The notes under the pieces: model-generated
The model's input: only the letters and a program-made list of their open reading frames with translations
What the model was told of the DNA's origin: nothing
Databases searched by the model: none
In this document: positions 5,090 through 19,659 of the stretch, in pieces
Position numbering within the stretch: position 1 is the first letter of the stretch
Layout of the letters: each line of letters starts with the position of its first letter
Position numbers and translations under genes: made by a program
IMG/VR virus record: IMGVR_UViG_3300034418_005550
Origin: an uncultured virus (IMG/VR IMGVR_UViG_3300034418_005550)
Taxonomy: Duplodnaviria; Heunggongvirae; Uroviricota; Caudoviricetes
Strand: one strand, 5' to 3'
Length of the DNA stretch: 20,000 nucleotides

Positions 5090-5134
5090 GAATGCTTTTT
5101 ACTACCGAGAGAACAAAAGGTCAGGTATGTTTTT
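5090..5134 (+). repeat. Dispersed intergenic repeat, copy 1
   Basis: CGAGAGAACAAAAGGTCAGGTAT (5106-5128) is identical to 9079-9101. 5090-5119 matches the reverse complement of 14625-14654 at 29/30. Confidence 0.9.
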
Positions 5135-7115: not shown

Positions 7116-8225
7116 TTAATATCTAGCACTTGCTACTTTCTTAGTTAAATGATTGTTAAATCTTGCAACCATTCTCGTAGTTCCAGTAGCACATTGCTTG
7201 ACACTTTTAGCACCTTTAAGCATAACTTCATTAGTTACACCACAATCTTTTAGACATTGTTCGGTATGATTAAATATTCCTAACCAATGGACATCTCTTA
7301 GTTTATATTCTTCTATTAATTTAATTTGCATTTCATGTCCTAAAAATCTTCCAACAAGCATTAATAATTGACTTGTGAAATATTCATCGTGGTCGTTATT
7401 ACAACCTGCACCTTGATGAGCAAGTTCGTGCAATAAAGTTAAATCAGTTGCCCACTTTTTCAATATAATTCTTCCGCCCCAAGTGTAATAAGATGAGCCT
7501 TCATAACTATTAACTAATTCTATATTTATATTTTTATCGAAATATTTCTTATAAAAGAAGTCGCTAAATATTTTAGTCTTAACATTTTTACGAACTATCT
7601 TTTCTAGTTCTTCAGTAGATAGTTTATTTTCGTTCTTAACATTTTTATATGCATATTTATTCTTTAGTAACTTTTCGTTCCAAGTTTCATTATTTTCTAA
7701 TATTGGTTTAGATATTTCTAAATTCAATTCATATGTATTTGCATAATATTGATTACCTGCTTTATCGAAATATCTTCTTCTTCTTGGTGTCATACATCCC
7801 ATGTACATGTGCCACTCATATCCTTGCTCATTAGGATAAAGTTTGGAATATTTTTCTGCTAACTTCCAAAAGGTTTCAAATATTTCTAAGTCCTTTTCAA
7901 ATTTAGGGGCAGGTGGTGGATTTTTATAATCATTAAAATGGTAATCATATTGATTAAATTTATATTCTAATTTTTCATCAATTATATATTCCATTTTAGG
8001 AAAGCCCCAACTATCCCTACTTATTCCGTCACTTGGTTCTATAAACTCCCCATTATCGAAAACTACTTTTTCAATAACTCCATTTGCGCCAATTATAAAA
8101 GTTCTTTTTCTTAAAACTTTTTTCTCAAGATTATTAGAATTAAATTTTCTAACATCAGGCATAATGTCAAAAGTTTTTGGCATAGCCCATTCGGAACGAT
8201 AAACTGCTTTTTTCTGATTTACCAT
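7116..8225 (-). CDS. Protein with C-terminal HExxH zinc metallopeptidase-like domain
   Basis: LLHELAHQ...DHDEYF (HExxH plus a third His); own promoter and SD AAGGAG. Confidence 0.7.
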   Translation of the reverse strand: MVNQKKAVYRSEWAMPKTFDIMPDVRKFNSNNLEKKVLRKRTFIIGANGVIEKVVFDNGEFIEPSDGISRDSWGFPKMEYIIDEKLEYKFNQYDYHFNDYKNPPPAPKFEKDLEIFETFWKLAEKYSKLYPNEQGYEWHMYMGCMTPRRRRYFDKAGNQYYANTYELNLEISKPILENNETWNEKLLKNKYAYKNVKNENKLSTEELEKIVRKNVKTKIFSDFFYKKYFDKNINIELVNSYEGSSYYTWGGRIILKKWATDLTLLHELAHQGAGCNNDHDEYFTSQLLMLVGRFLGHEMQIKLIEEYKLRDVHWLGIFNHTEQCLKDCGVTNEVMLKGAKSVKQCATGTTRMVARFNNHLTKKVASARY

Positions 8226-8237
8226 ATTAACTCCTTT

Positions 8238-8288
8238 TTATTATCTAACATATAAGATAATTATATACCTGTTATCGAGATATACCAA
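8238..8288 (-). promoter_or_regulatory. Sigma70-like promoter plus conserved leader
   Basis: TTGGTA-17bp-TATAAT, then TATCTTATATGTTAGATAATAAAAAGGAG before the ATG at 8225. Confidence 0.7.
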
Positions 8289-9054: not shown

Positions 9055-9123
9055 TTATACCAGAGAGATTTCTCCTAACGAGAGAACAAAAGGTCAGGTA
9101 TCTTTTTTCTCCATAATCATTGA
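9055..9123 (+). repeat. Dispersed intergenic repeat, copy 2 (most complete)
   Basis: TTATACCAGAGAGATTTCTCCT (cf. 11104-11125), the 23-nt core shared with 5106-5128, and CCATAATCATTGA (cf. reverse complement of 14594-14606, and 5053-5064). Confidence 0.9.
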
Positions 9124-9128
9124 GGTTT

Positions 9129-10304
9129 TTATTCTTCTTCGTCTTTTCCTAAGATTTCATTAACTTTTTGAGCTACATTATTAAGACTTAAAAGTACTGC
9201 AAATGTCTTATGACTTAGAATTGAGCCTCTAGGAAAGCCAATTTTTTCTAAATCAGTTAATGTTCCGTCTGGTAAAGTAAATTGTCCCCAATCAGAAACT
9301 TTATTAATGTAATTGTTATCTAAACTAATTACATCATCTCCTAATAGTTCTAAATATTGCAATTGTAGTTTCCAACTACCACCTAATAAATGAACTTTTC
9401 TTCCTTTAAATGCCTCCCAAGGCACTTCTGTTCCACCATAAGAAGTTGGTACTGAAAATCCTAAAACATAATCTTCAGGTATTTTATCAATGCAATTATA
9501 TTTTGGAATTATTATCATATTTTCTGTATGAGGTGCAATATCATCTGCAAACTCCATAATTTGTTCAAATGTATAATATTCGCAATCATTTGCTCTACAT
9601 TGGTCTGAACTCATAACATCTCTAGTAGTTGCATATTTAGGTTTAAAATGTTTTACTGCAGTTAAATGTTTTTCGTGATTATAGTCTTTCCAATCATTAT
9701 CAATAAATTGTATTTCATGGTGCCATAAAAATCTTTCTGCAACTTCTGGCTTATTTACATATCGAATACTTTCAGTTGAAATTGAGCCACATAACCAACC
9801 AAATTCTTTTGCAATAAATGAACTTGGGTCTAAAGGTGTATAAGAATAAATTAAATCTATCGGTAAATTTCTAGCTACTCTTTTTCCTTTTGGTTTTTTA
9901 TTTATTCCTAAATCTAAAGGCTCTGCAATTTCTTTTAATAATGCGTCTAAATCATCATCATCAAATCCAGTTCCATTCAACCCACTATCTTGTGCAACTT
10001 CTTTTAATAATTCTGCTAAATCATTATCGTTATAACTTGCTAAGTCAGAAATTCTATTATCAGCTAAAACTATTTTTTTAGCAGTTTTATCATCTACATC
10101 TACATATTCAACATTAACTTCGTCATAACCTAACATCTCCATAGCCATAACTGTATGATTACCTGCTAAAATTTCATTATTATTTTTATTTACTACTACA
10201 GAACGAAACTGTCCTAGTTCTTTTATGCTATTTGCAATAGCTCCTACATCTCCTTGACGAGCATTTTTAGGATAATATTTTAGTTCACTTATTTTAATTT
10301 TCAT
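9129..10304 (-). CDS. ParB/Srx-like N-terminal domain fused to a putative TIM-barrel/TGT-like domain (DUF6610-like); candidate DNA-modification enzyme
   Basis: N-term NAR...ILAGNHT...LADNR is the ParBc signature seen fused to phage DNA-modifying enzymes. C-term FIDNDW...KYATTRD...IIPK...VHLLGGS...ISLDNN. Confidence 0.7.
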   Translation of the reverse strand: MKIKISELKYYPKNARQGDVGAIANSIKELGQFRSVVVNKNNNEILAGNHTVMAMEMLGYDEVNVEYVDVDDKTAKKIVLADNRISDLASYNDNDLAELLKEVAQDSGLNGTGFDDDDLDALLKEIAEPLDLGINKKPKGKRVARNLPIDLIYSYTPLDPSSFIAKEFGWLCGSISTESIRYVNKPEVAERFLWHHEIQFIDNDWKDYNHEKHLTAVKHFKPKYATTRDVMSSDQCRANDCEYYTFEQIMEFADDIAPHTENMIIIPKYNCIDKIPEDYVLGFSVPTSYGGTEVPWEAFKGRKVHLLGGSWKLQLQYLELLGDDVISLDNNYINKVSDWGQFTLPDGTLTDLEKIGFPRGSILSHKTFAVLLSLNNVAQKVNEILGKDEEE

Positions 10305-11053
10305 TTTTTACTCTTTTCTATTCTACAATATTGACAAATAAATATCAGCTCTAAATCAATCCAATTATGACCTACTTCATCACAACTTTTTCTCTTTTTT
10401 GGTTGTTTAGCTATTTTACCTAAAATATTACTAAAGTTATTAGCAATACCATTAGGTGTAATATCAATATTTTTCCAATTTGTTTTATACCAAATAGATA
10501 CTTTTTTAATTTCTTCAACAGTTGCGTTTATTTCTTTTAATTCTTTTGTAGCTTTTTGAACTCTGCCTAATTCTCCTCTTGTTGCTTTAGTCCAATCTAT
10601 GCCACATTGATTACATATTTCTTCAAATATTAAATCTCTTTTTCTTACCTTTGTTATATTGGTTTTTGTTCTATTGGTTATTGTTAGGTCATTATCGAGG
10701 ACAACAGGGGTGTCTTTATCAGTACTACTAGGGGTGTCTTTATCTATGAATACAGGGCTAATTGTTCTTAATGTATATAAATTACTTTGATTAGCTCCAT
10801 TATCTTTTGGTGGTCTATTTTGTACTGAAACTGCTTTAATATCTATTAACTCTTTTAAAACTCTATCAATTGAACTTTTAGAACAATTCATATTTTTTGC
10901 TAATGTTGCTCTACTTGGAAAGCATTTATTTGTATCTCTATCTGCATACTTCCATAAATTACCATAAAGAACTTTTGCTTTATCTGAAATATTTGATAAT
11001 AAAATCCATTCAGGAATAATGATAAATTTATTATCAATATCTAATTTATCCAT
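10301..11053 (-). CDS. Phage replication initiator (N-terminal wHTH)
   Basis: SDKAKVLY...CFPSRATLA...SIDRVLKEL...SNLY is the typical phage initiator HTH. Start reassigned to ATG 11053, which has SD AGGAG. Internal iterons. Confidence 0.8.
   Translation of the reverse strand: MDKLDIDNKFIIIPEWILLSNISDKAKVLYGNLWKYADRDTNKCFPSRATLAKNMNCSKSSIDRVLKELIDIKAVSVQNRPPKDNGANQSNLYTLRTISPVFIDKDTPSSTDKDTPVVLDNDLTITNRTKTNITKVRKRDLIFEEICNQCGIDWTKATRGELGRVQKATKELKEINATVEEIKKVSIWYKTNWKNIDITPNGIANNFSNILGKIAKQPKKRKSCDEVGHNWIDLELIFICQYCRIEKSKK
10688..10758. repeat. Iterons / putative origin inside the initiator gene
   Basis: AGGGGTGTCTTTATC at 10706-10720 and 10730-10744 (24-bp period), with degenerate in-phase copies GTCATTATC (10688-10696) and AGGG (10754). 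Confidence 0.65.
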
Positions 11054-11103
11054 TTTTATAACTCCTATATCGTCAATAATTACAAGCTTTTCAGTCTTAA
11101 CAC

Positions 11104-11157
11104 TTATACCAGAGAAATATCTCCTCTTGTCTGAGGGCAACCTCAGGTATGTTTTTT
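11104..11157 (+). repeat. Dispersed intergenic repeat, diverged copy 3
   Basis: Flanks TTATACCAGAGAAATATCTCCT and TCAGGTATGTTTTT are shared with copies 2 and 1; the core is replaced by hairpin CTGAGG-GCAA-CCTCAG. Confidence 0.75.
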
Positions 11158-11165
11158 CACTAAAT

Positions 11166-11205
11166 AAATAAAAATGGGCTAAAACCTAAGTCCTAGCCCA
11201 TTTTT
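11166..11205 (-). terminator. Rho-independent terminator after the annealase gene
   Basis: Minus strand ATGGGCTAGGAC-TTAG-GTTTTAGCCCAT followed by TTTTATTT. Confidence 0.75.
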
Positions 11206-11230
11206 TAGTACGATACAGGGATTATATGTA

Positions 11231-11701
11231 CTATTCTTCTTCAGTGTCTGAACTTACTTGTTCATCTGATTTTAATATATCGTGTAAGATAAAATCTTCG
11301 TTTGCATACAAATGTAATGCAACTCCTAATTTCATACAAACTCTTTTAAAGCCGTCTGCTTCAGCTACTTTTAATCTTTCTGCGTCTGAATTCCAATTAA
11401 ATGGATGTTCGCAAACTCCAGTACTTTCTTTTGTAACTTTTACTCCATTTATTTCAACTGTAAGCCTATAAGTGCAACCAACTAATACTTGTTTAGTTTC
11501 TTGCGTTTTAGGATTAGTTAAAGTTTCTTTCAAATGATAAGGAATGCTTTCATCAAAGTTACCAAATAATGCAATCATTTTTTGCCTTACCATAGAGTGT
11601 TCTACATAATTACCATATTTGCCTTTTGGTGGAGATTTAACTGCACCTTTGCCAAAAGGTTTTGATAATTCTGCATATATTGCTCTTGTTTCTTTATCCA
11701 T
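11231..11701 (-). CDS. Rad52/Sak-like single-strand annealing protein
   Basis: LSKPF...YVEHSMVRQKM...KESTG...LKVAEADGFKRVCMKLGVALHLY matches the Rad52/22 pattern; located next to the initiator. Confidence 0.75.
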   Translation of the reverse strand: MDKETRAIYAELSKPFGKGAVKSPPKGKYGNYVEHSMVRQKMIALFGNFDESIPYHLKETLTNPKTQETKQVLVGCTYRLTVEINGVKVTKESTGVCEHPFNWNSDAERLKVAEADGFKRVCMKLGVALHLYANEDFILHDILKSDEQVSSDTEEE

Positions 11702-11885
11702 TTTTATTACCTTTCATACTTACTACATCACTTGCTATCCATAAAGGACTTTTACCAACTAAGGTAAAAGGTTTAGGTAGCTTGTTATTATATTTCCACA
11801 TCCAAACTGTATTTATTTGGACTTGATAATAATCTGCAATTTCTTTTACAGACCAATAAATGCTCCAAAAGTCTTTTTCTGTCAT
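11694..11885 (-). CDS. AlpA/excisionase-like HTH protein
   Basis: SVKEIADYYQVQINTVWMW...LPKP...PLW pattern. Confidence 0.7.
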   Translation of the reverse strand: MTEKDFWSIYWSVKEIADYYQVQINTVWMWKYNNKLPKPFTLVGKSPLWIASDVVSMKGNKNG

Positions 11886-11887
11886 AA

Positions 11888-12079
11888 TTAGTCCTTTATT
11901 TCTAGTTCTTTAATTTTAGCCATAGAATTTTTATAATTTAAGTCAGCTATATGATATTTCATATCTTGTTTTGCCTGCCTAATTATTATTTCATTTAGTC
12001 TTAGCAATTGTAAATTATTAAGGAAAAGTACAATTAATATACCTCCTAATAATAAAGTGCTAATATCTACTCCGAACAT
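11888..12079 (-). CDS. Hypothetical membrane protein
   Basis: N-terminal hydrophobic helix; SD AGGAGG. Confidence 0.6.
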   Translation of the reverse strand: MFGVDISTLLLGGILIVLFLNNLQLLRLNEIIIRQAKQDMKYHIADLNYKNSMAKIKELEIKD

Positions 12080-12080
12080 A

Positions 12081-12284
12081 TTATCCTCCTACTTTTCTTT
12101 TACTTACATATTTCATAAAGTTACAGCCGTCAAAAGTTGCTCTGCCCCATGCAGTACTTTCTGCATATTGAAAGCCTTTATCAGTTACTATATCGGTATA
12201 AAATAAATCTCCTACTTTTTCTGCTTTTTGGTAATAAAAAATATATCTCCAAGTGTGTTTAGTTTTTACAATTTTTGGGTACAT
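12081..12284 (-). CDS. Hypothetical protein
   Basis: ORF track 12081-12296; ATG 12284 lies just after the upstream stop. Confidence 0.6.
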   Translation of the reverse strand: MYPKIVKTKHTWRYIFYYQKAEKVGDLFYTDIVTDKGFQYAESTAWGRATFDGCNFMKYVSKRKVGG

Positions 12285-12286
12285 AA

Positions 12287-12448
12287 TTACTTCCAAACTA
12301 TTGGAACATCTTTTTGATATTCTTCAGTCCATAATTCTATTTCAGTTTTCTTTTCTTTATAAAATATTTCAAAAATAGCTAATGGTAAAAGAATTAATGA
12401 TATTAGAAACATAATATTTAAAAACCAATATAAAAATTCTATATTCAT
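12287..12448 (-). CDS. Small membrane protein (53 aa)
   Basis: Manual: MNIEFLYWFLNIMFLISLILLPLAIFEIFYKEKK...; TAATG stop/start coupling with the upstream gene. Confidence 0.6.
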   Translation of the reverse strand: MNIEFLYWFLNIMFLISLILLPLAIFEIFYKEKKTEIELWTEEYQKDVPIVWK

Positions 12449-12705
12449 TATTTATTACCTCTAACTCTCTTAATTGCTTTTGCATTATGATTAAGTCCAA
12501 TATTTGCATTATCTCCAATTTCAGTTAAATTAATATAACTTGTAATAATTGGATTAGTTAATTGAATAACTCTATCTGAACTAACAACATGAGTAAGTTG
12601 AATACTTTTACTACCTACACAGTCATCAATATCTAAATCATAACCAACATATTCTTTGCCAAATATTAGGTTATCATTTTCTTCTATTGCCTTATATATT
12701 TTCAT
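12448..12705 (-). CDS. Hypothetical protein, first gene of a putative early operon
   Basis: ORF track; SD AAGGAG; promoter directly upstream. Confidence 0.65.
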   Translation of the reverse strand: MKIYKAIEENDNLIFGKEYVGYDLDIDDCVGSKSIQLTHVVSSDRVIQLTNPIITSYINLTEIGDNANIGLNHNAKAIKRVRGNK

Positions 12706-12713
12706 ATATCTCC

Positions 12714-12761
12714 TTATTATCTAATATAAGATAATTATATAACCATTTTAGAATATAACAA
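12714..12761 (-). promoter_or_regulatory. Sigma70-like promoter plus conserved leader
   Basis: TTGTTA-16bp-TATAAT, then TATCTTATATTAGATAATAAGGAG; near-identical to 8238-8267. Confidence 0.7.
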
Positions 12762-12772
12762 ACTACTATTTT

Positions 12773-12815
12773 AAAAAAAATAAAGCCCATAATTATTACT
12801 AATTACAGGCTCTAT
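12773..12815 (-). terminator. Rho-independent terminator downstream of the que operon
   Basis: Minus strand ATAGAGCCTGTAATTA-GTAA-TAATTATGGGCTTTAT followed by poly-T. Confidence 0.8.
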
Positions 12816-12939
12816 TTAGTCCATGAAAGAAAACGAATAAATAATTTACTCAGAACAACAACCACATTGTCTTAAATATGTAAAGCATTCCTTTCTTTTA
12901 TTATTGTTTAACTAATTATATATTAATAAGAAGATAAAT

Positions 12940-13479
12940 TTATTTAACTAATGATAAAAATTCGTTTCTAGTTTCGCTTTCTTCTCTAAATACTCCACGC
13001 ATAACTGAAGTAATCATTTGTCCGTCAGTCTTAATTCCTCTTGCAACCATACATAGATGGGTTCCTATTCCATAAACTGCTACATCATATGTATTTACTA
13101 AATCTCTAACTTCATTTGCAATATCAGAAACTAGTTTTTCTTGTAGTTGTAATTTATGTGCGTGTTTATGTGCTATTCTAGCAAATTTAGATAATCCTAA
13201 AACTTTATCTCTAGTTATATAACCAATTGCTATTTCTGAACTAAACGGCATTAAATGATGTTCACATAAAGACCAAACTTTTATTCCTTTAACTATAACC
13301 ATTTGGTCTGCTTTTACTGCTTCAAAAGTTGTTCCAATTTTTCCTGCGTCATAATCTATAAACTCTTTCCAAAACTTTGCAACTCTTTTTGGTGTTTCTA
13401 ATAATCCATCTCTATTTGGGTCTTCTCCAATTTCAATTAATAATTCTTTTATTAATTTTTCTATTTTTTCTTGTTGCAT
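12940..13479 (-). CDS. folE: GTP cyclohydrolase I
   Basis: GL.ETPKRVA, SLCEHHLMPF, GLSKFAR, QLQE, HLCMVARG. Confidence 0.95.
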   Translation of the reverse strand: MQQEKIEKLIKELLIEIGEDPNRDGLLETPKRVAKFWKEFIDYDAGKIGTTFEAVKADQMVIVKGIKVWSLCEHHLMPFSSEIAIGYITRDKVLGLSKFARIAHKHAHKLQLQEKLVSDIANEVRDLVNTYDVAVYGIGTHLCMVARGIKTDGQMITSVMRGVFREESETRNEFLSLVK

Positions 13480-14213
13480 TATTTACCTCTTTCATCTGAC
13501 CATAACAAGACATGCAATCTTGGAGATAAGTTATATCCTCTTTTTAGTATTTCATCTGATAGTTGCACCATATTTATAAAATGGTATTTATTATTTTTGC
13601 CTTCAGGCATTATATAAACATTTTTTAAATCGTTTTCTTTTACTATTTCATCTACTTCAAATAAGTCATCTATTTCTTGTACTACAAATTTAAAAGCATA
13701 GTTTTGCGAATATTGCATATATTGTTCTAATACTTTTGGTTTAATAGTTTTTTCTTTTGGCATACCTGCATTTGATAATTTAGGACTAATATTAAAGTAA
13801 TCTATAACATCAAAAAACTCATCATTTTTAGCTAATATTGTTCCATTTGTTTCAATTTCAATAACAAATCCTTTTTGTCTTAGATTTTTCATTACATGAA
13901 ATAATTTACTTTGTTGGCTCATTGGTTCGCCACCAGTAAAAACAATATGACTTCCAAAAGGTAAATTAAGGCTCATTATTTGTCCTACTACTTGCTCAAC
14001 TGTAAAGCCAATAGTTTCTTTTTTAGGGTCATACTTAACTCCATTTTTACCTTTCCAGTCCCAAGTGTATGGAGTATCGCACCAATCACAAGTTAAATTG
14101 CAACCACTAACACGAATAAATGCACTAATCTTTCCAATAGTTTGCCCCTCGCCTTGAAATGTAGGTCCAAAAATTTCATTTATTCTAATTAAAGGTAAAG
14201 TTTTAGTATTCAT
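13479..14213 (-). CDS. queE: 7-carboxy-7-deazaguanine synthase (radical SAM)
   Basis: EIFGPTFQGEG, GCNLTCDWCDT, TGGEP, IETNGT, ISPKL, SPRLH. Start ATG 14213, or TTG 14225. Confidence 0.95.
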   Translation of the reverse strand: MNTKTLPLIRINEIFGPTFQGEGQTIGKISAFIRVSGCNLTCDWCDTPYTWDWKGKNGVKYDPKKETIGFTVEQVVGQIMSLNLPFGSHIVFTGGEPMSQQSKLFHVMKNLRQKGFVIEIETNGTILAKNDEFFDVIDYFNISPKLSNAGMPKEKTIKPKVLEQYMQYSQNYAFKFVVQEIDDLFEVDEIVKENDLKNVYIMPEGKNNKYHFINMVQLSDEILKRGYNLSPRLHVLLWSDERGK

Positions 14214-14580
14214 AATAACTTGCAATAGTTTTATCAGTTTCTTTTACACTTACTTTATTTAAAATATCTTTTTCTCCATATATTTCAATAAACATTGCTT
14301 CAAATTCTTTATAAAAATGTTTAGCCATTTTTTCAGCAGTAGGATTAAAGTTTAAAACATCGTTTAAATGCCTATGGTCTAATTTATTATCTATATATTC
14401 TTTAATAAAATTTAATTCTCCATAGTCAATTATGAAACCAACTTCATCTAATCTCATAGATATTAACTCAACAATTACTACATAATTATGTCCATGCAAC
14501 CTAGCACATTGGTGTTCTTTTGGTAAATTAAGTAATTGATGACTTGCAGAAAAAGTAAATTCTTTAGCTATTGAGTACAT
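14203..14580 (-). CDS. queD: 6-carboxy-5,6,7,8-tetrahydropterin synthase
   Basis: FSASHQL, CARLHGHNY, LDHRHLND, PTAE, ET motifs. Confidence 0.95.
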   Translation of the reverse strand: MYSIAKEFTFSASHQLLNLPKEHQCARLHGHNYVVIVELISMRLDEVGFIIDYGELNFIKEYIDNKLDHRHLNDVLNFNPTAEKMAKHFYKEFEAMFIEIYGEKDILNKVSVKETDKTIASYYEY

Positions 14581-14593
14581 TTCTTACAACCTT

Positions 14594-14654
14594 TCAATGT
14601 TTATGGTCAAAAAAGACCTGTGAGCTTTTGTTCTCTCGGTAGGAAAAAGCATTC
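14594..14654 (-). repeat. Dispersed intergenic repeat, copy 4 (inverted), between queC and queD
   Basis: Reverse complement GAATGCTTTTTCCTACCGAGAGAACAAAAGCTCACAGGTCTTTTTTGACCATAAACATTGA aligns with copies 1 and 2. Confidence 0.85.
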
Positions 14655-14668
14655 ATTGGGTAGTAGCC

Positions 14669-15451
14669 CTACTTATTCTCTTGAAATTCTTGTTGTAATT
14701 TAAGAGCGTTTTCTAAGACTTCGTCCCAACCTCCTACATACTCAACTGGGTCTTGTGTTCCTAATTGCCAAAAAGCTAATATTCGTTCAACATCAGAGCC
14801 AGTTTTTCCACTAGCTCTTCCTTTTTCATCAGGTGCATAACTTGTATTAGTATTTTTTAGAACTGTATTAAAGTCTAAATTTAACTTAACGCAGTTTGCG
14901 TCAGTATCTTGCAATATAGTAAATTTATCTCCATTTAAGTAAGGAAGTTTTAAACTTACTAAATCACTATCCCAATTGCCTACTTTAAAAGCATTCATTG
15001 CCTCTACATAAAATTCAGGTCTGCAATCAGGATAAATTGCGTGGTCGCCACTATGAACTCCAAGTCCAATATCTACTTGGCAATTTTCTTTTGTTGCTAT
15101 TGATAATGCATAACCTGCAATCATAGAAAAGAAAATCATATTTCTATTTGGAACTACTGTAAGTTTCATATTTTCTTGCTCATAAAAGCCCTCTGGCACA
15201 TCAGTATCGCTACTAACTAATGCAGAGTTATATAAATTACCTATTTGAGATACATCTAATACTGTATGTTCTACTTCATAGCCATTTTCTTTTAAATAAG
15301 CTAAATTATCAGATAATCTTTCTAATTCAAGTTTATGTTTTTGTCCATAATCAAAACTTAATGCAGAAACTTTATAATCATTTGCTAAAAAATTAATTAA
15401 AAGTCCTGTACTATCCATGCCTCCACTAAGGCTTAATACTGCTCTTTTCAT
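14669..15451 (-). CDS. queC: 7-cyano-7-deazaguanine (preQ0) synthase
   Basis: PP-loop SLSGGMDS, SFDYGQKH, VVPNRN, HSGDHAIYPDCRPEF. The C-terminal Zn cysteines are absent. Confidence 0.92.
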   Translation of the reverse strand: MKRAVLSLSGGMDSTGLLINFLANDYKVSALSFDYGQKHKLELERLSDNLAYLKENGYEVEHTVLDVSQIGNLYNSALVSSDTDVPEGFYEQENMKLTVVPNRNMIFFSMIAGYALSIATKENCQVDIGLGVHSGDHAIYPDCRPEFYVEAMNAFKVGNWDSDLVSLKLPYLNGDKFTILQDTDANCVKLNLDFNTVLKNTNTSYAPDEKGRASGKTGSDVERILAFWQLGTQDPVEYVGGWDEVLENALKLQQEFQENK

Positions 15452-15846
15452 TATTTCTCCAAATATCCTACTGAAGTAGTTTCAATTCCACCTCTTTTAG
15501 ATTGTTTATTAGTTACTTTTATCCATTTAGGCTCTAAAGTATCAAATAATTTTTGTGCAATATCACTTGCTAATGCCTCGCAAAAATGTCCTACTTCTCT
15601 AAATGTCCATAAATATAGCTTTAATGATTTACTTTCAATACATAATTCATCAGGCTGATATTCAATAGTTAATTCTCCAAAGTCAGGTTGTCCTGTCATT
15701 GGACATAAACTTGTCAATTCATCAGTCCAAAATTTTACTGTTTGAGTATTTTTTGGTGCAGGAAAAGTTTCAAGTTGGTCTAATGGATTTCTTGTCTTTT
15801 TTCCTAATATAGTTAGGTCTTTAGTATATTCTGGCTCATGTGCCAT
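15451..15846 (-). CDS. queF: NADPH-dependent preQ0 reductase (unimodular QueF)
   Basis: Catalytic CPMTGQPD, QueF motif ESKSLKLY, RGG; FCE in place of the usual FHE. Confidence 0.9.
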   Translation of the reverse strand: MAHEPEYTKDLTILGKKTRNPLDQLETFPAPKNTQTVKFWTDELTSLCPMTGQPDFGELTIEYQPDELCIESKSLKLYLWTFREVGHFCEALASDIAQKLFDTLEPKWIKVTNKQSKRGGIETTSVGYLEK

Positions 15847-15851
15847 TTTGT

Positions 15852-15886
15852 CCTCCTAGTTTTGTTTAAGGTTTTCTAGTACTTGA
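15852..15886 (-). promoter_or_regulatory. preQ1-I riboswitch-like element overlapping the queF SD
   Basis: UCAAG-UACUAGAAAAC-CUUAA-ACAAAACUAG-GAGG: a short P1, loop CUAG able to pair with tail CUAG, A-rich tail; immediately 5' of queF. Confidence 0.55.
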
Positions 15887-15917
15887 GATAAGGTTAGCAG
15901 GTATAAAAAATTTGTCT

Positions 15918-15945
15918 ATTATATAATCTGTTCTCGCTATAACAA
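15918..15945 (-). promoter_or_regulatory. Promoter of the que operon
   Basis: TTGTTA-16bp-TATAAT; same -35 hexamer as at 12756-12761 and 19304-19309. Confidence 0.65.
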
Positions 15946-15961
15946 CTAAAATAAAAAAAAC

Positions 15962-15989
15962 TTAGAACAAAAAGTAGAAAAAGTATAAT
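15962..15989 (+). promoter_or_regulatory. Putative promoter of the large ncRNA (divergent from the que promoter)
   Basis: TATAAT at 15984-15989; weak -35 TTAGAA; A-tract upstream. Confidence 0.55.
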
Positions 15990-15995
15990 ATAGGT

Positions 15996-16826
15996 TTATT
16001 ATATTTTTTATAAGGTTATGGTTAGCCTTAAAAAATAGCAACCGAGTAGAGCGAGAGCTAACCCAAGTAAAATTGGTAGGTAAGAAATTAGAAATTCAAC
16101 CTTGATGAAGACTTAAACAGAGAGCTTTTGTGAGCATAAACTAGTACCTGAAAATGAAACTTGGGGAGGTAATTAGCCCACTTGTTAAGAAGTAAAGCAA
16201 GAAGTAAGAAGTAAGGTAGGCGTATTGACTACAGGATTGAGAATTTCCATTAAAAAATAATTTAAAGTAGGATTGGTATAAACTTAACTAGCCAAAAATC
16301 TAGAGTATGCTCTCACAAAAGCTCTTTGTAACTGAGTTCTTATGGATATGAGTAGTTGTTTGGCAAGTAGTTCAGGAATGTACCTGCCTTTAGTTGAAAT
16401 ACTTTAGGGCTACGCTATAAAGCATATATTGATTCGAAGCAATATGAACTACTTAAAACTTATAAACCATTTAGTAACCAATCCTGAAATACGGCATGTC
16501 GAAAAATGTTAGATAAGTAATTTAAGTAAGCAAACAGATACGCTCATATCCGTAAGGACTTAGTTAATTTGAGAGATTAAAGATATAGGTTGTGAAGGTA
16601 ACTTCTCATTTGGGAAGCTTCATCTCAGGTGGTCGTAGCGTAATGCACGAGCCATATACTGAAAGGTATATAAGCCTGAAGGAATAACTTGCAGTACAAT
16701 ATCCTTTTAGGTTAGTTGTGGAGTGTGGTGGGTTGTTAATTTAATCAAAGTGGTTTTGACAAATTACTTTGAACTTTAACTGTAAGCAAGATTGTCATTA
16801 TTTAGCCTGTATCTTTAATCTCTTAA
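15996..16826 (+). ncRNA. Large structured ncRNA, family unassigned (GOLLD/ROOL size class); may extend to 16949
   Basis: No ORF of 60 aa or more in the track. Three long closing helices with G-U pairs, multiple GNRA hairpins, inter-domain complementarities, upstream -10 box and downstream terminator. Confidence 0.85.
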
Positions 16827-16862
16827 TTTAGATTTATAACTCCCAATAGGGTAGAATAGATG

Positions 16863-16949
16863 ATATATTCACTGATAACTCCGTGATTATTATCTAACAT
16901 ACGAGAAGACTTTAAGGACTGGCAACAGTCTTTAAGGTCTTCTTTTTTT
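16863..16949 (+). ncRNA. Putative antisense sRNA, or 3' tail of the large ncRNA
   Basis: Possible -10 TAGAAT (16852-16857); hairpin UCAC/GUGA exposing anti-SD AACUCC; UUAUUAUCUAACAUAC complementary to three mRNA leaders; terminator. Confidence 0.55.
16904..16949 (+). terminator. Rho-independent terminator of the ncRNA locus
   Basis: 18-bp stem AGAAGACTTTAAGGACTG-GCAA-CAGTCTTTAAGGTCTTCT (two G-U) followed by a T-run on the plus strand. Confidence 0.9.
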
Positions 16950-17439
16950 ACATTGGTGTAGGTTTTACAATATATCTTTCTTGAGTTTTAGGTAATGGTG
17001 CTAATTTTTTAGTGATTATATTCCAATAAGTAAAAGGTAAGCCAGTTTTTGATATTCCATGCCACCTGTAGCCTAATTTTTCATAAAATTTAATACTTGG
17101 TTTATTTGCAAAAAACCTTAATAACATTACATAATTTTCTTTCATATCTTCTTCTAACATTTTCATCATTTCTGCACCAATATTTTTACCTCTATATTGT
17201 TCTAATACGAAAAAATGTCTTAAAGTACAATGTCTTGGTTCTCTTTTTGTATAAGAAATAAACATAAAACCTTTATCTTCTAAGCTAAAAACTTTAGAAC
17301 TTTCTTTATCCCATTGTTTTTCAACTCGCCAATCATACAAAGCATTTTTTAAATGACTTTTAGAACTTAAACTACCACCTTTTGTATGTTCTATTTCTTT
17401 TAATAATTTTTCCATTTCTTTTTCAGTTTTTATTATCAT
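16948..17439 (-). CDS. GNAT-family acetyltransferase
   Basis: FFVLEQYRGKNIGAEMM (motif A) and ANKPSIKFYEKLGY (motif B). Start moved to ATG 17439. Confidence 0.85.
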   Translation of the reverse strand: MIIKTEKEMEKLLKEIEHTKGGSLSSKSHLKNALYDWRVEKQWDKESSKVFSLEDKGFMFISYTKREPRHCTLRHFFVLEQYRGKNIGAEMMKMLEEDMKENYVMLLRFFANKPSIKFYEKLGYRWHGISKTGLPFTYWNIITKKLAPLPKTQERYIVKPTPM

Positions 17440-19303: not shown

Positions 19304-19356
19304 TTGTTATCTCTAGCCAAGAAGCATAATATATAGGTATGTTAGATAATAAGGAG
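19304..19356 (+). promoter_or_regulatory. Promoter, conserved leader and SD of the isolated plus-strand gene
   Basis: TTGTTA-17bp-TAATAT, then GTATGTTAGATAATAAGGAG. Confidence 0.65.
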
Positions 19357-19362
19357 AACAAA

Positions 19363-19659
19363 GTGAAACAAGAAAAAAACCTAAAAAAAGTTAAAGTTGT
19401 AAAGCATTGGGAGAATAGCGAAAAGCACTATGAAGATTGTGGTCAAGTAAACATTGACTTTTATGGTCCATGTAATTGCAGAAAAAGAGCTAACGAATTT
19501 TCAGGTTGGAAAATTTCTGACTTAAGCTACTGCTATAACGAAGCAACTGCAGAACTCAATGATAAAAGATTAATGACAATGACTAGAAAAGACGGTTGGA
19601 CACAATACCATTGTAACGAAGGTTGTGCAGAGAGCTATAAAAATCCTTGGAAAGGATAA
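19363..19659 (+). CDS. Cys-containing hypothetical protein in a stand-alone cassette (alternative start ATG 19339)
   Basis: In-frame GTG preceded by AAGGAG; own promoter and terminator. Confidence 0.7.
   Translation: MKQEKNLKKVKVVKHWENSEKHYEDCGQVNIDFYGPCNCRKRANEFSGWKISDLSYCYNEATAELNDKRLMTMTRKDGWTQYHCNEGCAESYKNPWKG

What the first reader, a model, noticed from the sequence alone, without database searches (positions are those of the whole stretch)
16863..16949. Antisense segment matching the 5' leaders and SD of three distant phage transcription units
Seen: TTATTATCTAACATAC (16887-16902) is the exact 16-nt reverse complement of the leader at 19337-19352. It is 15/15 complementary to the minus-strand leader at 8238-8252 and 14/15 to that at 12714-12728. 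In each target the motif lies between a -10 box and AAGGAG. Just 5' of it, UAACUCC (16876-16882) sits in the loop of a UCAC/GUGA hairpin and is complementary to GGAGUUA in the 8225 leader (CUCC fits all three SDs). A terminator follows immediately, and a possible own -10 (TAGAAT, 16852) precedes it. AUGUUAGAUAA inside the large RNA (16506-16516) could sequester it in cis. Inference: a trans-acting phage sRNA, or the tail of the giant RNA, that co-ordinately shuts off translation of early operons. This would give a functional handle on the giant RNA.
Basis: partly seen in the sequence, partly recalled or inferred. Interest (0 to 1): 0.88.

Follow-up and report, generated by a model that had tools for sequence, protein, structure and literature searches.

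The report
Phage small RNA mirroring shared leaders
An uncultured freshwater phage and two relatives keep a small, terminator-ended RNA gene whose open middle stretch is the exact mirror of the sequence that starts four of the phage's own messenger RNAs, so it probably turns those messages down by base pairing, although the small transcript itself has not been seen.

Summary
The 15-nt word TATRTTAGATAATAA occurs 5 times in the 38.9-kb phage genome. Four copies lie 5-7 nt after a sigma-70-type -10 box and just before GGAG and a start codon. The fifth copy (16887-16902) has a hairpin upstream where the others have a promoter.

Read on the + strand, the fifth copy looks like an ~86-nt small RNA gene. 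It has a -10 box, a 4-bp stem whose loop holds UAACUCC, a 15-nt unpaired anti-leader stretch, and a GCAA-capped 17-19-bp terminator with U7.

Two relatives (L010, L189) keep this unit. Its 33-nt core is 94-97% identical, while flanks are 44-90% identical. Five terminator pairs carry changes on both sides. L189 carries its -10 box at a different alignment position.

Both relatives lack the ~850-nt "giant RNA" block, so the unit does not depend on it. RNA contigs suggest the big RNA is + strand and ends at 16804, before the motif.

Best reading (about 0.5): a trans-acting anti-leader sRNA, in design like P1 c4. No transcript of it was seen, no seed/target co-variation is available, and a DNA operator or relic leader remains a serious rival. 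"Early operons" is unproven.

The parts
16852..16857 (+). putative -10 box (TAGAAT) of the small RNA. The possible -35 (TTTAGA) lies 19 nt upstream, which is a poor spacing.
   Evidence: Read from the sequence. L010 has TATAAT in the same column. L189 has TTAACG-18-TATAAT (10 of 12) in a different alignment column, 7 nt before the stem.
16865..16950 (+). predicted small RNA, about 86 nt. The start is inferred from the -10 box and the end from the U run.
   Evidence: The fold is a 5' stem-loop, an open stretch and a terminator, at -31.8 kcal/mol. The same architecture is found in L010 (84 nt) and L189 (83 nt).
16869..16886 (+). 5' stem-loop: UCAC/GUGA stem and a 10-nt loop holding UAACUCC (anti-SD, 16876-16882)
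   Evidence: All 4 stem pairs are invariant in 3 of 3 phages, which gives no covariation. CUCC has an unpaired probability of 0.56-0.57.
16887..16902 (+). anti-leader stretch (seed). 15 nt are invariant in 3 phages; the 16th base, C16902, is in this phage only.
   Evidence: Mean unpaired probability is 0.85-0.87.
16903..16950 (+). intrinsic terminator: 17-19-bp stem, GCAA loop and a U7 tail. It lies directly after the stop of the minus-strand GNAT gene, so it may work in both directions.
   Evidence: Of 17 pairs, 5 changed on both sides and 3 on one side; at 1 pair, 2 of 3 phages have A opposite C. Counting cells, 6 are G.U on the + strand and 2 are A.C.
8238..8253 (-). target leader of the 369-aa gene (7116..8225). 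The promoter is TTGGTA-17-TATAAT at 8288..8260.
   Evidence: Predicted duplex with the sRNA 5' part: -27.6 kcal/mol.
12714..12729 (-). target leader of the 85-aa gene (12448..12705). It is the variant TATATTAG. The promoter is TTGTTA-16-TATAAT at 12761..12734.
   Evidence: Predicted duplex: -17.5 kcal/mol, the weakest of the four.
19337..19352 (+). target leader of a 98-aa + strand gene (GTG at 19363)
   Evidence: Predicted duplex: -31.3 kcal/mol.
15958..16805 (+). large structured RNA block (the 'giant RNA'). It is absent from L010 and L189 and is not part of the small RNA unit.
16506..16516 (+). leader-like 11-mer AUGUUAGAUAA inside the big RNA, complementary to the seed
   Evidence: 0.06 expected per 20 kb. 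It is predicted to be mostly paired (unpaired probability 0.32).

Best explanation
The segment 16865-16950 is a small RNA gene on the + strand, opposite to almost all neighbouring genes. It has a weak sigma-70-type promoter of its own. The RNA has three parts: a short 5' stem-loop that shows UAACUCC in its loop, a 15-nt single-stranded stretch, and an intrinsic terminator. The single-stranded stretch is the mirror of the first 15 nt of four phage messenger RNAs, and the loop is the mirror of their Shine-Dalgarno region (GGAGUUA in two of them). Pairing would cover the 5' end and the ribosome-binding site of these messages, block 30S binding, and perhaps mark the duplex for cleavage, so one RNA would damp four transcription units together. 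The gene probably arose from a duplicated leader that acquired a promoter on the other strand. Shown here: the sequence matches, the conservation, the fold and the strand bias of the terminator. Inferred: transcription of the small RNA, pairing in the cell, and the direction of the effect.
For: (1) There are 5 copies in the genome against 0 of the control. Four lie at +1 of promoters, before GGAG.
(2) The fifth copy has no upstream -35/-10 on the minus strand but a hairpin, so it is not a fifth leader of the same kind.
(3) The unit is kept in 3 phages (ours, L010, L189). The core is 94-97% identical, against GNAT 79-90%, queF 85-95% and the spacer 44-80%.
(4) Terminator: 96.8% of cells are paired and 5 of 17 pairs changed on both sides; 5 of 500 shuffles reach this, and slid controls give 30-48% paired.
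(5) Strand: across the 3 phages 6 cells are G.U on the + strand and 2 are A.C. Ours alone has 3 G.U and 0 A.C. The GCAA loop and the U7-8 tail read correctly on the + strand in all 3.
(6) A -10 box lies 7-11 nt before the stem in all 3 phages. In L189 it is a different TATAAT after a 16-nt deletion and is called at 10 of 12.
(7) The seed has an unpaired probability of 0.85-0.87.
(8) Predicted duplexes with the four leaders are -31.3, -30.6, -27.6 and -17.5 kcal/mol. Seven leaders without the motif give -6.4 to -11.9. Shuffles give -9.6 +/- 2.7, with a minimum of -20.6 in 500. In a scan of the whole genome, three of the leaders are the best places apart from the small RNA's own antisense strand.
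Against: No transcript of the small RNA was seen.
- RNA-library contigs give almost no cover over 16805-17020. This says little, because contigs and size selection lose small RNAs.
- The promoter in this phage is weak: TAGAAT, with the -35 at a 19-nt spacing.
- The stem UCAC/GUGA and the seed never vary, so there is no covariation for them and no seed/target co-variation. All related phages share the same word.
- The more distant relatives G001, G003 and G004 have neither the motif nor the unit.
- A duplicated leader automatically gives 'complementarity' when read on the other strand.
- The conserved word could equally be a DNA site; several HTH proteins are encoded nearby.
- One terminator pair is A opposite C in 2 of 3 phages, which would pair on the minus strand.
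- The fourth target pairs only modestly, within the range of the best shuffles.
Confidence: 0.5

Rival explanations
1. The word is a DNA-level element of the promoters. It could be an operator for a phage regulator, or a -10-like (GATAAT) signal in the initially transcribed region that pauses sigma-70 RNA polymerase. The 16887 copy would then be an extra or orphan site, or a relic leader, and any + strand transcript would be irrelevant.
For: In 4 of 5 copies the word starts 5-7 nt after the -10 box, where repressors and pause signals act. The queF promoter has similar -35/-10 boxes but lacks the word, so the word is a regulatory add-on. Candidate DNA-binding proteins are encoded nearby: a 63-aa excisionase-like protein, a 140-aa HTH protein, and a winged-helix DUF7249 protein. 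The pause-signal idea rests on recalled knowledge of lambdoid late promoters and was not tested.
Against: The word is not a palindrome. This reading does not explain why the fifth copy keeps GGAGUUA, the UCAC/GUGA stem, a -10 box on the + strand and a + strand U7-8 tail in 3 phages while its flanks diverge to 44-80% identity. The fifth copy has no promoter upstream on the minus strand.
Confidence: 0.25
2. The segment is the 3' tail of the large + strand RNA, as in the reader's second option. Transcription from the big RNA's promoter would run through to the terminator at 16950, so the anti-leader stretch would be a functional arm of the giant RNA.
For: The big block is on the + strand: 6 G.U and 0 A.C in three long helices, positive GC skew, and an RNA-library contig with an adapter on its right end. 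No terminator lies between it and 16903. It holds an 11-nt leader-like word that could pair with the seed. A conserved + strand TTAGCA-17-TATTAT (9 of 12) lies upstream of the region in L010 and L189 and, read by eye, in ours at 15894-15922.
Against: L010 and L189 keep the unit without the block. L010 retains only a remnant of it. RNA contigs of two runs stop at 16804 (with adapter) and 16805, at the block's right boundary. In a read-through RNA, the seed's 5' half would pair with 16857-16865.
Confidence: 0.12
3. The functional strand is the minus strand. On read-through RNA from the GNAT operon, the word plus GGAG plus GTG would form a leader-like element. It could be a start site for a mini-ORF, or a decoy for a factor that binds the leaders.
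For: GGAG lies 6-7 nt before a GTG that is kept in all 3 phages. A weak minus-strand promoter-like match, TTGCCA-18-TATGTT (9 of 12), overlaps the hairpin loop.
Against: The ORFs are 12, 29 and 18 codons long with no conserved peptide (read). G.U bias, the GCAA loop and the U tail favour the + strand.
Confidence: 0.08

Closest known systems
c4 antisense RNA of phages P1 and P7 (immI). Cited through passages of PMC8201110 and PMC12197685; further details are recalled.
   Same: Both are small phage RNAs that act by base pairing on the phage's own messages. The recognition sequences are shown in loops or open stretches. The target lies at or near the ribosome-binding site. The complementary sequences arose as repeats within the phage.
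   Different: There is no match to the Rfam C4 model. As recalled, c4 is cut out of the same transcript as its single target operon (icd/ant). The unit here seems to have its own promoter on the opposite strand, and it mirrors the common 5' end of four separate transcription units. No lysogeny genes were found in this phage.
Cis antisense RNAs of phages: sar of P22 and OOP of lambda (passages of PMC12197685)
   Same: They are short terminator-ended RNAs made from the strand opposite to phage genes, and they lower the expression of those genes.
   Different: Those RNAs overlap their one target gene. Here the four targets lie 2.4 to 20 kb away, so the action would be in trans. The only overlapped sequence is a non-coding leader copy.
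Other candidate 'anti-leader' small RNAs noted earlier in this scan in uncultured phages (e1-5962410, e1-7845781, e1-7995706, e1-7841244, e1-6013748). These are unchecked AI notes.
   Same: The design is the same: a gene-less, terminator-ended unit whose open stretch mirrors a leader or ribosome site shared by many of the phage's own genes.
   Different: They come from different phages and have different sequences. I tested none of them here, and they are not independent evidence.

Membership tests
Rfam C4 antisense RNA (P1/P7 c4) | Match to the family's covariance model | tested here: not met
   No family matched at gathering score over the whole window. C4 was not among the 8 weak matches at E up to 10 in 15700-17100.
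Rfam C4 antisense RNA (P1/P7 c4) | Excised from the same transcript as its target operon (recalled feature) | not testable with these tools
   This needs end mapping. The unit lies on the strand opposite to three of its four targets.
Trans-acting base-pairing sRNA (generic) | Own promoter and intrinsic terminator on one strand | tested here: inconclusive
   The terminator is met: 17-19 bp, U7-8, with compensatory changes. The promoter rests on consensus only: TAGAAT in ours, TATAAT in L010, and TTAACG-18-TATAAT in L189.
Trans-acting base-pairing sRNA (generic) | Accessible seed complementary to target ribosome-binding regions | tested here: met
   Seed unpaired probability is 0.85-0.87. Duplexes with the four leaders are -17.5 to -31.3 kcal/mol, against -6.4 to -11.9 for 7 other leaders.
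Trans-acting base-pairing sRNA (generic) | The transcript exists | tested here: inconclusive
   RNA-library contigs give depth 0.7-10 in the bin 16719-17019, most of it from a contig that ends at 16804. Contigs cannot show a small RNA.
Motif-bearing phage promoter/leader (the other four copies) | Sigma-70-type -35/-10 ending 5-7 nt upstream of the word, on the strand of the downstream gene | tested here: not met
   On the minus strand, the hairpin abuts the word upstream in ours, L010 and L189.
Type I toxin-antitoxin (small toxic peptide with an antisense RNA) | Conserved small hydrophobic ORF overlapped by the antisense RNA | tested here: not met
   The ORFs after the GTG are 12, 29 and 18 codons long, with neither length nor sequence conserved (read).

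The most novel reading that the evidence does not exclude
The ~850-nt block is a dispensable, inserted RNA module: it is present here, reduced to a remnant in L010 and absent in L189. Its + strand transcript ends exactly at the block's boundary and carries a mimic of the shared leader (AUGUUAGAUAA, 16506-16516). The big RNA would act as a decoy that titrates the anti-leader small RNA. That would give a three-tier RNA circuit (giant RNA, small RNA, four messages) in a lytic-type phage, and a first function for a phage giant RNA.
Probability: 0.1. Interest if true: 0.8.

Novelty: new variant of a known kind. Interest (0 to 1): 0.6.

Why it matters
Known phage antisense RNAs (c4, sar, OOP) each control one gene or operon, mostly in temperate coliphages. 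This would be a single small RNA matched to a sequence tag shared by four separate transcription units of an uncultured freshwater siphovirus that modifies its DNA with 7-deazaguanine. That would amount to a regulon-wide RNA switch built from a duplicated leader. Similar candidates were noted in other phages of this scan, so the design may be common and undescribed. The case also gives a clean test system, because a 15-nt seed and four leaders suit compensatory-mutation reporters. It further shows that the small RNA unit is separable from the neighbouring giant RNA.

Tried and rejected
- Rfam gave nothing in the window or in 6 related loci.
- blastn against cultured phages found no match for the gap. 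The 8-kb neighbourhood gave only a 296-nt queC match at 67% identity in 4 Flavobacterium phage records.
In the context listing, 115 look like chance hits in unrelated settings and 1 (L075) has a promoter- and SD-like setting that I did not follow.
- The longer pattern gave 13 stretches: 10 from this phage group (2 of the hairpin type, 8 of the leader type) and 3 unrelated.
- The genome-contig scan gave 25 hits in unrelated settings; blastn of the phage genome matched none of them, so no prophage and no host were found.
- The distant relatives G001, G003, G004 and G005, and L190/L191, have no motif system and no analogous repeated leader word, so seed/target co-variation could not be tested.
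- Laid RNA contigs leave 16805-17020 almost uncovered. This is not evidence either way.
- The 1.58-kb non-coding region of L012 has no anti-leader word of 11 nt or more that stands out.
- Mini-ORF and type I toxin reading: rejected because the peptide is not conserved.
- DnaA-box or IHF-site reading of the word: considered by eye only and not pursued.
- Earlier notes of this scan hold nothing on this genome or on look-alikes of the big RNA.
- Literature searches gave listings only, apart from passages of PMC8201110 and PMC12197685. In what I saw, no paper describes one phage sRNA matched to a leader shared by several phage operons. This is not a proof of absence.

Full report
**Setting.** The window is bases 11899-31898 of a 38,869-bp virus record rated complete. 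It is a siphovirus-type phage with terminase, portal, major head, major tail and tape-measure genes. No integrase was among the 49 ORFs scanned against PHROGs. Almost all genes are on the minus strand. Next to the finding lie queF, queC, queD, queE and folE (12940-15846). A ParB-N/DUF6610 protein lies at 9129-10304. I read these, from recalled knowledge, as a 7-deazaguanine DNA-modification set. The DNA occurs in freshwater metagenomes. No cultured relative, prophage or host was found.

The 16-mer at 16887-16902 has an exact reverse-complement copy at 19337-19352. Same-orientation copies lie at 8238 (15 of 15, then 1 mismatch) and 12714 (14 of 15). That is 4 matches against 0.09 expected, and 0 of 200 shuffles reached 4. 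The genome holds 5 copies of TATRTTAGATAATAA and none of the backwards control. It is the most repeated 12-mer family in the genome.

Four copies share one layout: a -35 box (TTGnTn), a -10 box (TATAAT, or CATAAT/TAATAT), 5-7 nt, the word, 0-4 nt, GGAG, and a start codon. The queF promoter has similar boxes but no word. The word is therefore a regulatory add-on to a subset of promoters.

The targets are:
- a 124-aa and a 98-aa + strand gene of unknown family;
- the unit that begins with an 85-aa gene and runs into the Rad52-like, replication-initiator and ParB/DUF6610 genes;
- a unit that begins with a 369-aa gene.

Nothing shows that these are 'early'.

**The fifth copy is different.** In text orientation it matches the minus-strand leaders at 8238 and 12714. 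Where a minus-strand leader would have its promoter, there is a 19-bp hairpin that starts right after the stop of the GNAT gene. After the word come UCAC, GGAGUUA and GUGA. So this copy is a full leader copy (word plus SD) with 4 extra bases, and the 4 extra bases create a small stem.

**Relatives.** Two related phages carry the same unit. L010 is from a viral contig and has QueF 98% identical. L189 is from a metagenome contig and has GNAT 86% identical. A third contig (L006/L009) is 100% identical over the 1114-nt stretch compared (15847-16960) and does not count.
- The 33-34-nt core (stem-loop plus word) is 94-97% identical among the three. GNAT is 79-90% identical at the DNA level, queF 85-95%, the terminator 74-87%, and the spacer upstream 44-80%.
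- Of the 17 terminator pairs, 5 changed on both sides and 3 on one side. At 1 pair, 2 of 3 phages have A opposite C. In all, 96.8% of cells pair. Five of 500 shuffles reach the observed covariation, and slid controls give 30-48% paired. With only three related sequences this is suggestive, not proof.
- The four pairs of the small stem and the seed never vary, which says nothing for or against them.

**Which strand.** Several points favour the + strand.
- The terminator has 6 G.U cells on the + strand against 2 A.C cells. In this phage it has 3 G.U and 0 A.C.
- The loop is GCAA on the + strand in all three phages. That fits the GNRA pattern, a label I recall rather than tested.
- A run of 7-8 U follows on the + strand in all three.
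- A -10 box lies 7-11 nt before the small stem: TAGAAT here, TATAAT in L010, and TTAACG-18-TATAAT (10 of 12) in L189. In L189 a 16-nt deletion has put a different TATAAT in that position.

The promoter here is weak, with the -35 box at a 19-nt spacing. The hairpin may also stop minus-strand transcription from the GNAT operon.

**Fold and targets.** Started 7-8 nt after the -10 box, the RNA is 83-86 nt long. It folds as a stem-loop, an open stretch and a terminator in all three phages. The seed has an unpaired probability of 0.85-0.87 and CUCC of about 0.57.

| Partner of the sRNA 5' part | Predicted duplex (kcal/mol) |
|---|---|
| Four motif leaders | -31.3, -30.6, -27.6, -17.5 |
| Seven leaders without the word | -6.4 to -11.9 |
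| 500 shuffles of one leader | -9.6 +/- 2.7 (minimum -20.6) |

In a scan of 15,530 genome windows, the three best places apart from the small RNA's own antisense strand are three of the leaders. In two leaders the pairing continues across a small internal loop into GGAGUUA, ending 2 nt before the AUG.

**The giant RNA.** The gap 15847-16947 holds three nested long-range helices of 18, 24 and 25 bp. All 6 wobble positions are G.U on the + strand, with 0 A.C and 1 U-U. GC skew is positive, opposite to the flanking genes. The folding energy is -276.9 kcal/mol on the + strand (z -6.6) and -214.7 on the minus strand (z -7.0). Rfam has no match.

Contigs from four RNA libraries cover it: 16205-16804, 16598-16805, 16021-16541 and 15906-16288. 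One contig carries adapter sequence straight after 16804. The adapter types at 12976 and 15871, which lie in or beside minus-strand genes, fit a library in which that adapter marks an RNA 3' end. If so, 16804 is the 3' end of a + strand RNA. This is a weak inference from contigs.

L010 and L189 lack the block. Their GNAT-queF gaps are 286 and 217 nt, against 1101 nt here. Alignment places the block between imperfect direct repeats of about 17 nt (15914-15931 and 16795-16811). L010 keeps a short remnant of the block's 5' part (read by eye). The block's right edge coincides with the RNA end at 16804/16805. The small RNA unit therefore does not depend on the giant RNA, and the mature giant RNA probably does not contain the motif.

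The 11-mer AUGUUAGAUAA at 16506-16516 is unlikely by chance. It is expected 0.06 times per 20 kb, and my rough estimate for this block is about 0.01. It is, however, predicted to be mostly paired (unpaired probability 0.32). A decoy role is possible but unsupported.

**Verdict.** The best reading is a trans-acting anti-leader small RNA gene, at about 0.5.

The main rival is that the word is a DNA site (operator or pause signal) and the fifth copy an orphan, at about 0.25. That reading does not explain why the SD copy, the stem, the + strand -10 box and the U tail are all conserved.

The giant-RNA-tail reading gets about 0.12 and a minus-strand element about 0.08.

The closest known system is the c4 antisense RNA of P1/P7 (PMC8201110 and PMC12197685, passages seen). 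The unit works like c4 but does not match its Rfam model. It also differs in having, as inferred here, its own opposite-strand promoter and four dispersed targets.

Earlier notes of this scan list similar candidates in other phages. They agree with this reading but are unchecked and were not tested here.

Noticed in passing
window 15958-16805 (+): A large structured RNA of about 850 nt with three domains, each closed by an 18-25-bp helix. It is biased to the + strand, covered by RNA-library contigs and has no Rfam match. It is flanked by imperfect ~17-nt direct repeats (15914-15931 and 16795-16811), is absent from L189 and is reduced to a remnant in L010. The 3' arm of the outermost helix (16806-16830) lies outside the block, in sequence that L189 has next to its queF -10 box.
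   Followed up: partly
L012 900-2900 (reverse strand), record G003: A related phage fragment has a ~1.58-kb stretch with no ORF longer than 88 aa that ends in a strong hairpin plus T8. It is opposite to the neighbouring genes. Its first ~95 nt are 72.6% identical to the start of this window's big RNA, and the rest is unrelated. Rfam has no match.
   Followed up: partly
window 15870-15871 (-): RNA-library contigs of two runs end here with adapter sequence, 24 nt before the queF AUG and about 40 nt downstream of where the TTGTTA-16-TATAAT promoter would start. This may be a processed 5' end of the queF message.
   Followed up: no
window 5102-5128, 9079-9101 (+) and about 14625-14642 (-): A second repeated intergenic word (core CGAGAGAACAAAAG, up to 27 nt shared between two copies) occurs three times in this genome and three times in L010's contig. 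Its function is unknown.
   Followed up: no
window 9129-15846 (-): A full set of queF, queC, queD, queE and folE genes plus a ParB-N/DUF6610 fusion protein. I read this, from recall, as a 7-deazaguanine DNA-modification module that includes the queF step.
   Followed up: partly
window 15894-15922 (+); L010 3952..3924; L189 3139..3111: A + strand promoter-like TTAGCA-17-TATTAT (9 of 12) lies back to back with the queF promoter and is conserved in all three phages. It could start a longer + strand RNA that runs into the small RNA unit.
   Followed up: no
L075 (IMG/VR contig of 4171 nt): An unrelated-looking viral contig has the exact 15-mer 5 nt after a TATAAT and 6 nt before AAGGAG and an ATG. 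This may be chance or a distant leader of the same kind.
   Followed up: no
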